64,000 nt of DNA, taken from NCBI RefSeq assembly GCF_009914755.1, contig NC_060945.1; one strand, 5' to 3'. The translations under genes and the position numbers were made by a program. The DNA is from the human T2T-CHM13v2.0 reference genome, Homo sapiens. Under the pieces are notes generated by a model that worked only from the letters and a program-made list of their open reading frames with translations, did no database searches and was not told where the DNA came from. Each line of letters begins with the position of its first letter. Within the stretch, counting starts at the first letter, position 1. Positions 790 through 1,745 of this stretch are shown piece by piece.

Positions 790-795
790 TTTAAT
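790..795 (-). terminator. Candidate polyadenylation signal ATTAAA for the - strand small ORF
   Basis: tttaat on + strand = ATTAAA on -. It is followed on - by GT-rich sequence (gtagtgtg...ttgttctgggt) resembling a downstream element. Confidence 0.45.
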
Positions 796-1009
796 GAACC
801 AAACTAAAGGTAAATATTTTCTTTTGATTCCCAAGGCAGACTTGTGGGTACCCAAGTTCCTCAGCCCATCTTTAACTCAGTAGGATGTGGCATCTCCATT
901 GAGGCTCTTCATGGAATCCCTGGAGGTGAAACCTCGGTGTCCGGTTGCTCCAAACCAGTGCTGGTGGGATTCAGTTTTCTGGACCCATTTCTGGGTGAAG
1001 TCAAGGAAT

Positions 1010-1745
1010 GGAGGCGGGCGGCTGTCAAGCGTCTCTGTTGCTCAATGGGGCAGGCCAGTCCCAGCGGCGACTTAGAGGTGGCTGGCTGGGCGTCCCTACA
1101 GGAGAATGGGCCACAGGGCCAGCGGGGCCAGCAGGATGAGCAGGCCTGGTTTGGGGTATGGGCCGCAGGCGTGGAGCTCGATGCTGGGCAGGGGCCTGCT
1201 CACTGACGAGTTGCCACCCGGGATTGGGGTAGGGGTGGGCGCGGTGGTCTCGGGCTCTGAGCGGCTCTGCACCGGCAGGAGCAGGACTGGCAGCAGCAGC
1301 AGCAGCGCCAGTGCGGATCGGGCCGCCATGGCCAAGCGCTCCGGCTCGTCCCGTAGCAGTGCCGCGGCGGCGGCCGCTGCCGGGAGTGTCTGTTCCGCGG
1401 TTACGCGGGGTCCTCTCCGGTCCTGTCCAGTGAGGTCCTGACAGCTGTACCCTGGCCCAACCCCTGCCCACGGCTGTTAACGATCAGCCTCGGGGAGCAG
1501 GTGTGCCGCCACGCGCGCCGTAGCGCTCCGGAGCTGGCTCTGCGCTCACGTGCTCGCTGTGCCCTGCGCGCGGGCGGGCCGTGTCCCCGCAGCCCCGCGC
1601 CTGGCGCTGCCAAGCTGCCCAGCGGGCTTTAGCAGGTGCTGAAATGCCCGCTGCCAGTCGCCGAGTGCTGGGTGCAGAGGATCTCTCCAGACACCTAGGC
1701 TCCCTTCTTTCGCGGCACGTGGGAAAAACTCCTGAAGTGCGTGCA
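1010..1745. promoter_or_regulatory. Intronic CpG island, probable promoter of the - strand small ORF
   Basis: Very GC/CpG-dense stretch (gccgcggcggcggccgc, cacgcgcgccg, tgcgcgcgggcggg) in otherwise CpG-depleted DNA. CACGTG E-boxes near 1547 and 1716. Confidence 0.8.
1096..1329 (-). CDS. Putative small GPI-anchored mucin-like (CD24/CD52-like) protein, 77 aa, single exon, antisense within ADARB1 intron
   Basis: ATG at 1329-1327 in a strong Kozak context (gccATGG); the ORF track starts 2 codons earlier at a TTG. Translation: MAARSALALLLLLPVLLLPVQSRSEPETTAPTPTPIPGGNSSVSRPLPSIELHACGPYPKPGLLILLAPLALWPILL*. It has an N-terminal signal peptide, a T/P/S-rich core with N-S-S sequon, small residues A-C-G, a spacer, and a hydrophobic C-terminus ending at the stop. 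It lies in a CpG island, with ATTAAA about 300 nt downstream. Confidence 0.65.
   Translation of the reverse strand: MAARSALALLLLLPVLLLPVQSRSEPETTAPTPTPIPGGNSSVSRPLPSIELHACGPYPKPGLLILLAPLALWPILL

What the first reader, a model, noticed from the sequence alone, without database searches (positions are those of the whole stretch)
790..1745. Nested antisense gene for a CD24-like GPI-anchored microprotein inside the ADARB1 intron
Seen in sequence: a compact gene-like unit on the - strand, namely CpG island, GC-rich leader, gccATGG, 77-codon ORF, about 300-nt 3'UTR, then ATTAAA with GT-rich downstream sequence. The peptide has a signal peptide (about aa 1-22/24), about 30 residues of Thr/Pro/Ser-rich mature peptide with an N40-S-S sequon, a small-residue omega candidate (A54-C55-G56), a spacer (PYPKP) and a hydrophobic end with no cytosolic tail. 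Established knowledge: this is the architecture of CD24 and CD52, tiny heavily glycosylated GPI-anchored peptides that are Siglec-10 ligands. The N-terminus also resembles CD24 as I recall it ([26 protein letters not shown] vs MAARSALALLLLLPVLLLPVQSRSEPETT). Inference: a little-characterised third member of this structural class, or an old retro-derived CD24 relative. I cannot assign a gene symbol, and it may exist only as a predicted or lncRNA annotation.
Basis: partly seen in the sequence, partly recalled or inferred. Interest (0 to 1): 0.9.

Follow-up and report, generated by a model that had tools for sequence, protein, structure and literature searches.

The report
Ancient intact CD24 retrocopy in ADARB1
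An unannotated, very old intronless copy of the immune "don't-eat-me" gene CD24 sits backwards inside an ADARB1 intron, and it still carries an open reading frame with CD24's full layout, so humans may have a hidden second CD24-type gene.

Summary
ORF length alone is not beyond chance.

The locus is a full-length processed copy of CD24 mRNA.
- nhmmer with CD24 sequence hit only this locus in 528-536 kb: window 1012-743 (E 9e-7) and window 456 to -57 (E 1e-16). The second match ends at CD24's terminal AATAAA. Reversed queries gave 0 hits.
- The copy reads straight through CD24's intron site.
- It lacks the Alu in CD24's 3'UTR and is 69% identical to CD24 there. Annotated CD24 pseudogenes are 88-99% identical. 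RefSeq lists none on chr21.

Protein-level tests all fail or are weak: Pfam CD24 gave no hit, BLASTP gave E 23, and hhalign gave 25%.

The 3'UTR shrank by 22%, but the ORF kept its length, start, stop and hydropathy profile (r 0.85 to CD24). Neutral simulations reach this in only 0.007-0.5% of runs. Selection therefore probably maintained the frame.

Against present function: there is no annotation, human-tamarin divergence is at the neutral level, and the ancestral poly(A) signal is lost. Expression was not testable.

The parts
1151..1750 (.). CpG island. The stretch above about 1366-1420 lies outside the part that aligns to CD24 mRNA, so it is host-derived and a candidate promoter. It holds two CACGTG boxes (1547-1552, 1716-1721) and one GGGCGG (1572-1577).
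   Evidence: GC 0.70, CpG o/e 0.81 over 600 bp. Motifs. nhmmer with the 5' sides of two processed CD24 copies matched only 1332-1266, at E 15. Promoter activity was not tested.
1330..1366 (-). Remnant of the CD24 5'UTR just upstream of the start codon. CD24's first ATG (M1) is not kept, and the chr21 ATG corresponds to CD24's second Met (M5).
   Evidence: Lenient blastn aligned window 1366-1266 to the chr15 CD24 copy, L012 1403-1495: 66 of 101 identical, E 6e-4. This match is weak and the region is composition-biased.
1096..1329 (-). Intact 77-codon ORF plus TAG. It is homologous to the CD24 coding sequence from M5 to the stop.
   Evidence: DNA identity to the CD24-type CDS is 136 of 217 or 134 of 218. 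The stop codon and the bases after it align. Hydropathy-profile correlation with CD24 is 0.854.
1264..1329 (-). Codons 1-22, the predicted signal peptide, with cleavage predicted after VQS. Its core is a (CTG)5.7 repeat at 1290-1306. CD24's exon 1/exon 2 junction (after the Gln of ..PTQ) corresponds to 1267|1266 and is read straight through here.
   Evidence: Rule-based screen, tandem repeat, junction. SignalP was not available.
1168..1263 (-). Codons 23-54, the predicted 32-residue mature peptide. It has 10 Ser/Thr, 8 Pro and one N-x-S sequon (N40, 1204-1212). The candidate omega site is A54, in A-C-G.
   Evidence: The N-S-S sequon and the A-x-G motif are also in the tamarin protein. hhalign pairs the NSS with CD24's NSS. 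Glycosylation was not tested.
1099..1167 (-). Codons 55-77: a spacer (PYPKP) and a 16-residue uncharged hydrophobic end, the predicted GPI attachment signal. It is partly built on a 9-bp repeat with 3.2 copies (1108-1135).
   Evidence: The tamarin has one more repeat unit and an Arg in the tail, and it fails my GPI rule.
742..1095 (-). Proximal 3'UTR, homologous to the CD24 3'UTR from about 115 to 435 nt after the stop.
   Evidence: nhmmer hit window 1012-743 at E 8.7e-7, the only hit at E <= 100 in 528 kb. With the chr6 gene as query, E was 2.4e-6. Global alignment gave 225 of 343 identical, beaten by 0 of 1000 shuffles and 1 of 1416 natural decoys.
790..795 (-). ATTAAA, where CD24 has ATTAAT, inside a 13-nt exact match (TTTGGTTCATTAA). 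It may be a newly gained poly(A) signal, but its use is unknown.
1..457 (-). Distal 3'UTR, homologous to the last ~660 nt of the CD24 3'UTR. It continues 57 nt past the window start to the position of CD24's terminal AATAAA. There the chr21 copy reads AATTAT, and an Alu with a duplicated target site is inserted.
   Evidence: nhmmer hit L001 1257-744 (window 456 to -57) at E 1.7e-16 and 1.2e-16. The sequence was read. Distal identity is 365 of 497.

Best explanation
The locus is a full-length processed (intronless, reverse-transcribed) copy of CD24 mRNA. It was inserted, antisense, into intron 1 of ADARB1 long before the New World/Old World monkey split. From its divergence I infer an age on the order of 100 million years.

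It landed beside a CpG island, or acquired one, that is not part of the copied mRNA. Its 3'UTR has decayed: 69% identity and 22% shorter. The coding frame has kept its start, its stop, its length and CD24's hydropathy layout.

I therefore read it as a CD24-derived retrogene whose frame was maintained by selection for most of its history.

If it is expressed, the inferred mechanism runs as follows.
- The 77-residue precursor enters the ER through a signal peptide cut after Ser22.
- The C-terminal 23 residues are exchanged for a GPI anchor at about Ala54.
- A peptide of about 32 residues, rich in Pro, Thr and Ser and carrying one N-glycan and several O-glycans, is displayed on the cell surface.
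- There it acts mainly through its glycans, as CD24 does.

Shown: the homology, the lack of an intron, the extent of the copy, the intact frame and the statistical improbability of neutral retention.

Inferred: selection, promoter use, processing, GPI anchoring and any ligand.
For: Identity as a CD24 retrocopy:
- nhmmer with a processed CD24 copy gave exactly one hit in 528 kb, window 1012-743 (-), E 8.7e-7.
- The CD24 gene and its 3' end gave window 457-165 (E 3.3e-12) and window 456 to -57 (E 1.7e-16), ending at CD24's AATAAA.
- Reversed queries gave 0 hits at E <= 100.
- The signal-peptide DNA is 66 of 101 identical to the chr15 CD24 copy.
- CD24's intron site after Q23 is read through.
- The Alu in CD24's 3'UTR is absent.
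- The Atlas top hit is the CD24 cluster, at 0.93 with 170 of 256 features. hhalign gave P 7.9e-4 over 37 columns.

Selection on the frame:
- The UTR went from 1485 to 1154 nt, while the CDS went from 231 to 234 nt.
- Neutral simulations started from a CD24-type copy. They kept an ORF plus the full architecture in 1 of 20000 runs (UTR matrix with indels), 59 of 20000 (no indels) and 7 of 40000 (CDS matrix).
- A hydropathy correlation of at least 0.854 together with an ORF was reached in 1, 70 and 11 of 15000 runs.
- Codon-like GC3 > GC1 > GC2 is seen in 1 of 339 non-coding ORFs, which is the target itself.
- The ORF is also intact in the tamarin, and both indels are in frame.

Promoter: the CpG island is directly upstream, with o/e 0.90.
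Against: - RefSeq annotates no - strand gene or pseudogene here.
- Three protein searches in named sources found only one 'hypothetical, partial' tamarin protein.
- Human-tamarin identity is 56 of 76 (74%). That is at or below the mean of neutral simulations at d = 0.08-0.14, and an ORF survives 31-54% of those runs. No amino-acid constraint is visible within primates.
- The tamarin tail carries an Arg and fails my GPI rule.
- CDS identity to CD24 (61-63%) is lower than UTR identity (69%).
- The ancestral poly(A) signal is lost and an Alu sits there.
- ORFs of this length are common in this GC-rich DNA.
- Both hydrophobic ends rest on short tandem repeats, which could keep Leu-rich runs and in-frame indels without selection.
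- The Pfam CD24 model does not match. BLASTP gave E 23. hhalign probability is only 24.8%.
- My architecture rules were written after seeing the target, and the simulations use a modern CD24-type copy as a stand-in ancestor.
- No expression data were available.
Confidence: 0.6

Rival explanations
1. It is a dead processed pseudogene. The CD24 copy has drifted neutrally. Its frame is still open by luck, because stop codons are rare at 70% GC and slippage-prone CTG and 9-bp repeats keep the ends Leu-rich. The CpG island is an unrelated orphan island or enhancer of ADARB1.
For: ORFs of at least 77 aa occur in 70.5% of shuffles. Human-tamarin divergence is at the neutral level and the ORF survives 31-54% of neutral runs. 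The CDS is no better conserved than the UTR at nucleotide level. The poly(A) signal is lost and an Alu is inserted. There are tandem repeats under both hydrophobic segments. There is no annotation and no protein record except one hypothetical protein.
Against: Given the divergence seen in the adjacent UTR, an ORF with CD24's layout survives in only 0.005-0.3% of simulations, or 0.007-0.5% by the threshold-free hydropathy measure. CDS length changed by 3 nt, while the UTR lost 331 of 1485 nt. The same start and the same stop are kept. Codon-like GC3 periodicity persists outside the repeats.
Confidence: 0.3
2. It is a transcribed but non-coding unit. The CpG island would drive an antisense RNA that matters as RNA. 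It might act through the conserved distal CD24-type 3'UTR blocks, as a decoy for factors that bind CD24 mRNA, or by interfering with ADARB1 transcription. The ORF would be incidental.
For: The distal 3'UTR is the best conserved part: 365 of 497 identical, including a block of about 45 nt that is nearly identical to CD24. It is antisense within ADARB1 and has a CpG island.
Against: This reading does not explain why the frame, start, stop and hydropathy layout are kept. Higher distal identity is expected anyway if that part of CD24 itself evolves slowly. No transcript is annotated.
Confidence: 0.07
3. It is a chance or de novo ORF in a CpG island that merely resembles CD24 by composition and is unrelated to it.
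For: Protein-level tests are negative or weak. The similarity within the coding part is mostly in a Leu-rich signal peptide.
Against: There are collinear, same-strand matches to about 1.1 kb of CD24 3'UTR at E 9e-7 and 1e-16. There are no other hits in 528-536 kb and none with reversed queries.
Confidence: 0.03

Closest known systems
CD24 (chr6), the parent gene: a small, heavily glycosylated GPI-anchored sialomucin
   Same: The chr21 locus is collinear with CD24's whole mRNA. It has the same layout and nearly the same sizes: 77 against 80 aa overall, with a predicted mature peptide of 32 against 33 residues by my rule. An N-S-S sequon sits at the aligned place. The hydropathy profile correlation is 0.85.
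   Different: It has no intron and uses CD24's second Met as its start. The mature peptide is not recognisably similar: it is Pro-rich, with 10 rather than about 16 Ser/Thr and one sequon. MAFFT identity is 34%. It fails the Pfam CD24 model. It has a different promoter region and chromosome. Expression, GPI anchoring and Siglec binding are unknown.
Annotated CD24 processed pseudogenes CD24P1-P5 (chr1, 15, 20, Y, 3)
   Same: These are also intronless copies of CD24 mRNA on other chromosomes (passages of PMC1847692 name chromosomes 1, 15 and Y).
   Different: Those I compared are 88-99% identical to CD24 (chr1 88.4%, chr15 96.1%, chrY 99.2%) and are found by the Pfam model. The chrY copy carries the Alu of CD24's 3'UTR. 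The chr21 copy is 69% identical, lacks that Alu, is invisible to the Pfam model and to BLAST-type genome searches, and is unannotated. I did not examine CD24P3 on chr20.
CD52, another tiny GPI-anchored glycopeptide
   Same: Only the general layout is shared: signal peptide, very short glycosylated peptide and GPI signal.
   Different: No Pfam CD52 match appears at E <= 10, and nothing links the locus to CD52 by descent. The resemblance is analogy only.
Retrogenes that use a CpG-island promoter at the insertion site (a general class, recalled from the literature)
   Same: An intronless copy with an intact frame lies directly downstream of a CpG island that is not part of the copied mRNA.
   Different: Transcription from this island has not been shown.

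Membership tests
CD24 family (Pfam PF14984) | Significant match of the protein to the family profile | tested here: not met
   hmmscan against Pfam at E <= 10 returned only Sex_peptide, at 13.7 bits against a cut-off of 25. PF14984 run on the whole genome gave 13 matches, 6 of them over the cut-off (chrY, chr6, chr1, chr15 twice, chr3). None was on chr21.
CD24 family (by descent) | Common ancestry with CD24, shown by collinear sequence homology | tested here: met
   nhmmer hits are unique to this locus and lie in the right order and strand: E 8.7e-7, 3.3e-12 and 1.7e-16. Reversed-query controls gave 0 hits. The global UTR alignment was beaten by 0 of 1000 shuffles and 1 of 1416 decoys.
CD24 family | N-terminal cleavable signal peptide | tested here: met
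   The rule-based screen (h-region hydropathy plus the -3/-1 rule) passes for the human ORF, the tamarin protein and a CD24-type ORF. The DNA of this part aligns to CD24's. No trained predictor such as SignalP was available.
CD24 family | Very short Ser/Thr-rich mature peptide with N-glycosylation sequon(s) | tested here: met
   32 predicted residues, 50% Ser/Thr/Pro, mean hydropathy -0.64, and one N-S-S sequon that is conserved in the tamarin. It is more Pro-rich and less Ser/Thr-rich than CD24.
CD24 family | C-terminal GPI attachment signal (small omega and omega+2 residues, a spacer, and an uncharged hydrophobic end) | tested here: inconclusive
   The human ORF passes (A54-C-G, PYPKP, 16 hydrophobic residues). 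The tamarin orthologue fails because of an Arg five residues from the end. NetGPI and PredGPI were not available.
CD24 family | GPI anchoring, sialylated glycans and Siglec-10 binding | not testable with these tools
   This needs expression, PI-PLC release and binding assays.
Processed retrocopy / retrogene | Lacks the parent's intron and is collinear with the mature mRNA up to the poly(A) signal | tested here: met
   The gene and its processed copy part ways at ..ACGCAG|ATT (after Q23). The chr21 sequence aligns across that point. Homology ends at CD24's terminal AATAAA.
Processed retrocopy / retrogene | Poly(A) remnant and target-site duplications flanking the copy | tested here: not met
   No A-run follows the last homologous bases. 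An Alu with its own target-site duplication sits there. This is expected for a copy of this age, so it is not informative.
Processed retrocopy / retrogene | Intact frame retained beyond neutral expectation (which separates a retrogene from a pseudogene) | tested here: met
   Simulations gave 1 of 20000, 59 of 20000 and 7 of 40000, and 1, 70 and 11 of 15000. CDS length is kept while the UTR is 22% shorter. The caveat is that the primate-level comparison looks neutral.
Processed retrocopy / retrogene | Transcription and translation | not testable with these tools
CD52 family (recalled as Pfam PF15116) | Match to the family profile | tested here: not met
   No such hit appears in the Pfam scan at E <= 10.
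CpG-island promoter | At least 300 bp, GC >= 0.55 and CpG o/e >= 0.65 | tested here: met
   1151-1750: 600 bp, GC 0.70, o/e 0.81. Promoter activity was not tested.

The most novel reading that the evidence does not exclude
Placental mammals, humans included, carry a second functional CD24-type gene. It would be a retrogene roughly 100 million years old, driven by its own CpG-island promoter inside ADARB1. Its product would be a GPI-anchored sialomucin with a different peptide core. Such a protein could present Siglec-binding glycans (a CD24-like 'don't-eat-me' or damage-dampening signal) while escaping CD24 antibodies, CD24 knock-outs and CD24 expression probes.
Probability: 0.25. Interest if true: 0.85.

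Novelty: new member of a known kind. Interest (0 to 1): 0.65.

Why it matters
CD24 is studied intensively as a Siglec-10 ligand, a tumour immune checkpoint and a stem-cell marker, and it is treated as a single-copy gene with a few young pseudogenes.

A far older copy has kept the full precursor layout and sits next to a CpG island. If it is expressed, it would be a candidate paralogue that standard homology searches, antibodies and knock-out designs all miss.

There is also a methodological lesson. For tiny, fast-evolving proteins, descent can be invisible at protein level (Pfam, BLASTP) yet plain in the untranslated regions.

If it is not expressed, it is still a rare example of a short frame outliving about 30% nucleotide divergence.

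Tried and rejected
Things that led nowhere, or that I considered and rejected:

- Recent paralogue or retrocopy found by BLAST-type whole-genome search with the DNA or the protein. Only self and chance-level hits appeared.
- Pfam scan of the ORF. It returned only a sub-threshold Sex_peptide hit, which I take as a signal-peptide artefact.
- Three protein-database searches: the ORF, the human+tamarin alignment, and the 126-aa open frame with the region restricted. Together these cover candidate lengths 42-220 aa. Each returned only tamarin P0001. Candidates from unnamed sources (21, 3676 and 490) were left out by the tool.
- Rfam on 1-4000 gave only Alu-derived hits at 2187-2475. No long direct or inverted repeats were found.
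- The first nhmmer run was swamped by an Alu in the query. I repeated it with the Alu cut off.
- 5' homology gave nothing significant. nhmmer with the 5' sides of two processed copies gave only E 15 at the signal-peptide DNA. The annotated 5' end of the CD24 gene (L038) is an upstream alternative-exon region containing an Alu. It matched only the window's Alu at 2172-2487, not the island. I did not fetch CD24's ATG exon.
- Frame tracking through the middle of the CDS by DNA alignment is ambiguous: 117 of 217 aligned pairs are in the same phase, with many small gaps. I therefore make no claim that there were no compensated frameshifts.
- Ten literature searches found no paper on this peptide, on an ADARB1 antisense gene, or on a chr21 CD24 copy. 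Several were dominated by noise such as 'CD24low' and 'ADARB1-associated'. I read passages of PMC1847692 and PMC5186806 only.
- Supplementary tables (Ribo-seq ORF catalogues, retrocopy databases) were closed. They may list this locus.
- Structure prediction and fold search were not run, because a disordered peptide of about 30 residues would give nothing usable.
- No non-human genome DNA was reachable, so dN/dS, PhyloCSF and the presence of the copy outside primates could not be tested.
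Full report
**1. The observation**

On the - strand there is an ATG in the context GCCATGG at 1329. A 77-codon frame follows, ending in TAG at 1098-1096.

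- A CpG island covers 1151-1750: 600 bp, GC 0.70, CpG o/e 0.81. The part upstream of the ATG has o/e 0.90, against a window average of 0.29.
- ATTAAA lies at 795-790.
- RefSeq has no - strand feature here. The only overlapping models are ADARB1, including Gnomon models with a 27.5-kb first exon.
- The region is not masked as repeat between -25 and 2146.

**2. Is it more than chance?**

ORF length is not. 70.5% of 1000 dinucleotide shuffles of 1000-1760 hold an ATG-ORF of at least 77 aa. Three longer ORFs overlap the target in other frames. The ATG-free leader is only weakly unusual (P 0.21 and 0.036).

Two things are unusual.

- Architecture. I wrote a rule-based screen for a signal peptide and a GPI signal, and it also passes a genuine CD24-type protein. 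Among 825 non-coding ATG-ORFs of 50-150 aa in 264 kb, 42 were signal-like, 19 were GPI-like and 3 were both. Only the target also has a hydrophilic Ser/Thr/Pro-rich middle.
- Codon periodicity. The frame shows GC3 0.84 > GC1 0.71 > GC2 0.55. Only 1 of 339 GC-rich non-coding ORFs shows this, and it is the target. The pattern persists outside the repeats.

As a caveat, both hydrophobic ends sit on short tandem repeats: (CTG)5.7 at 1290-1306 and a 9-bp unit with 3.2 copies at 1108-1135.

**3. Protein-level comparison with CD24**

This comparison is negative or weak.

- Pfam gave no CD24 or CD52 hit at E <= 10.
- The Pfam CD24 model run over the whole genome found CD24 and five copies, but not chr21.
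- BLASTP against a CD24-type ORF from the chrY copy gave E 23.
- An uncorrected Smith-Waterman score of 54 beat within-segment shuffles at P 0.008, but the match is mostly signal peptide.
- hhalign of human+tamarin against three human CD24-type ORFs gave probability 24.8% and P 7.9e-4 over 37 columns. Those columns include the N-S-S sequon.
- The protein-language-model Atlas holds the sequence letter for letter. It ranks the CD24 cluster first, at 0.93 with 170 of 256 shared features. By the tool's own calibration that is a lead and not proof.
- Three database searches found one relative, a 79-aa 'hypothetical protein, partial' of Saguinus oedipus. It shares 56 of 76 aligned residues and differs by two in-frame indels.

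**4. The turn: DNA homology outside the coding part**

A lenient blastn against the CD24 copies gave two collinear hits. One covers the start codon and signal-peptide DNA (66 of 101). The other is about 300 nt after the stop and contains a 13-nt exact match around the ATTAAA.

The 366 nt after the chr21 stop align to the 470 nt after CD24's stop at 225 of 343 (65.6%). That score was beaten by 0 of 1000 shuffles and 1 of 1416 natural decoys.

nhmmer with a processed CD24 copy (Alu removed) was run against the window plus twenty 10-kb control stretches of chr21, 528 kb on both strands. It returned exactly one hit at E <= 100: window 1012-743 on the - strand, E 8.7e-7.

With the chr6 gene and its 3' end as queries, a second and stronger block appeared: window 457-165 (E 3.3e-12). 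This extends to window 456 to -57 (E 1.7e-16). It ends at CD24's terminal AATAAA, 1807 nt after CD24's stop. Reversed queries gave no hit.

Three further points fix the nature of the copy.

- Intron. The gene and its processed copies part ways at ..ACGCAG|ATT, after Gln23. The chr21 sequence aligns straight across that junction, so the copy is intronless.
- CD24's own Alu. CD24's 3'UTR carries an Alu 823-1149 nt after its stop. The chrY copy shares it, but the chr21 copy lacks it.
- The old poly(A) site. At the position of the old poly(A) signal the chr21 copy reads AATTAT. An Alu with its own target-site duplication is inserted there.

The unit is therefore a full-length processed CD24 retrocopy of about 1.42 kb, spanning window about 1366 to -57. 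That is larger than the finding's span.

**5. Age**

Without the Alu, the 3'UTRs are 1485 nt (CD24) and 1154 nt (chr21). Identity is 774 of 1115 (69.4%) and K80 is 0.39. The proximal part is 64.9% identical and the distal part 73.4%.

The annotated copies I compared are much closer to CD24: chrY 99.2%, chr15 96.1% and chr1 88.4%. RefSeq lists CD24P1-P5 on chr1, 15, 20, Y and 3, and none on chr21. Passages of PMC1847692 name chromosomes 1, 15 and Y.

The tamarin protein sets a minimum age at the split of New and Old World monkeys. Using mammalian neutral rates that I recall rather than computed, K of about 0.4 suggests roughly 100 million years or more. This figure is an inference with wide error. 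The substitution pattern is strongly AT-to-GC biased (47 against 13), so the local rate may be high.

**6. Dead or kept?**

The UTR lost 22% of its length. The coding part changed by one codon and kept the same start (CD24's second Met) and the same stop.

I let a CD24-type copy drift as the adjacent UTR did, using the same substitution matrix and the same indel density.

| Simulation | Runs | ORF of 60-100 aa from the old start | Full signal/mucin/GPI layout |
|---|---|---|---|
| UTR matrix with indels | 20000 | 2800 | 1 |
| UTR matrix, no indels | 20000 | 4853 | 59 |
| CDS matrix, randomly placed, no indels | 40000 | 3479 | 7 |

A threshold-free measure agrees. The hydropathy-profile correlation with CD24 is 0.854 for the human ORF and 0.716 for the tamarin. 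An ORF with a correlation that high arose in 1, 70 and 11 of 15000 runs.

I conclude that selection most likely held the frame and its layout for much of the copy's history.

**7. Evidence against present function**

- The human-tamarin identity of 74% is at or below the neutral expectation for d = 0.08-0.14. An ORF survives 31-54% of such runs.
- The tamarin tail has an Arg and fails my GPI rule.
- The coding DNA is no better conserved than the UTR.
- The old poly(A) signal is gone.
- There is no annotation, and no paper was found.
- My rules were written after seeing the target, and a modern CD24-type copy stands in for the ancestor in the simulations.
- CD24 itself is known for a fast-changing peptide core. 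Weak sequence constraint is therefore compatible with function but does not show it.

**8. Mechanism, if expressed (inferred)**

- Transcription would start from the island, which lies outside the copied mRNA. It carries two CACGTG boxes and a GC box.
- The signal peptide would be cut after Ser22.
- A GPI anchor would be attached near Ala54.
- The product would be a glycopeptide of about 32 residues with one N-glycan and several O-glycans.
- The ATTAAA at 795-790 differs by one base from CD24's ATTAAT. It could serve as a new poly(A) site.

**9. Verdict**

Its 'old retro-derived CD24 relative' reading is right. The claim of a working GPI-anchored microprotein gene is plausible and is supported by the retention statistics, but it is unproven.

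Noticed in passing
L001 447-750 (window -354 to -51): An Alu is inserted exactly at the retrocopy's former poly(A) signal, flanked by a duplicated TGTAAAT(T) target site. With the Alu removed, the flanks line up with CD24's last bases (..TGTAAAT.. / ..GGCT..AGAGCAATC..).
   Followed up: partly
L010 sense 2488-2814 (823-1149 nt after the CD24 stop): CD24's own 3'UTR contains an Alu. The chrY processed copy shares it, but the chr21 copy does not. This gives a relative date for the copies. The Alu subfamily was not determined.
   Followed up: partly
window 9201-9600: A second unannotated CpG island in the same ADARB1 intron (GC 0.57, CpG o/e 1.14). It holds three CACGTG boxes at 9397, 9506 and 9540.
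   Followed up: no
whole window: CACGTG occurs 16 times, against 4.85 expected. None of 100 shuffles reached 16.
   Followed up: no
window 33801-34850 and 52601-52900: CpG islands lie next to annotated alternative 5' exons of ADARB1 (34967-35084 and 52703-52881). They fit alternative promoters.
   Followed up: no
window 1-21156 (chr21:43455619-43483156): Three Gnomon ADARB1 models have a single first exon of 27.5 kb covering the retrocopy on the + strand. This looks like intronic read coverage rather than a real exon.
   Followed up: no
window 2146-2481: An Alu lies just upstream (in - strand sense) of the CpG island. Rfam sees it as partial SRP and mir-1268-type matches below threshold.
   Followed up: yes
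L012 (chr15 CD24P2), about 1640-1860: The chr15 CD24 copy has its C-terminal codons replaced by a poly-T/Alu insertion, so the ORF ends in a run of Phe. It is a plainly dead copy, in contrast to chr21.
   Followed up: no
window 1100-1330 against 1330-1760: CpG o/e drops from 0.90 in the island upstream of the ATG to 0.56 inside the ORF. Several human/tamarin differences (W/R, C/R) have the form expected from CpG decay.
   Followed up: partly
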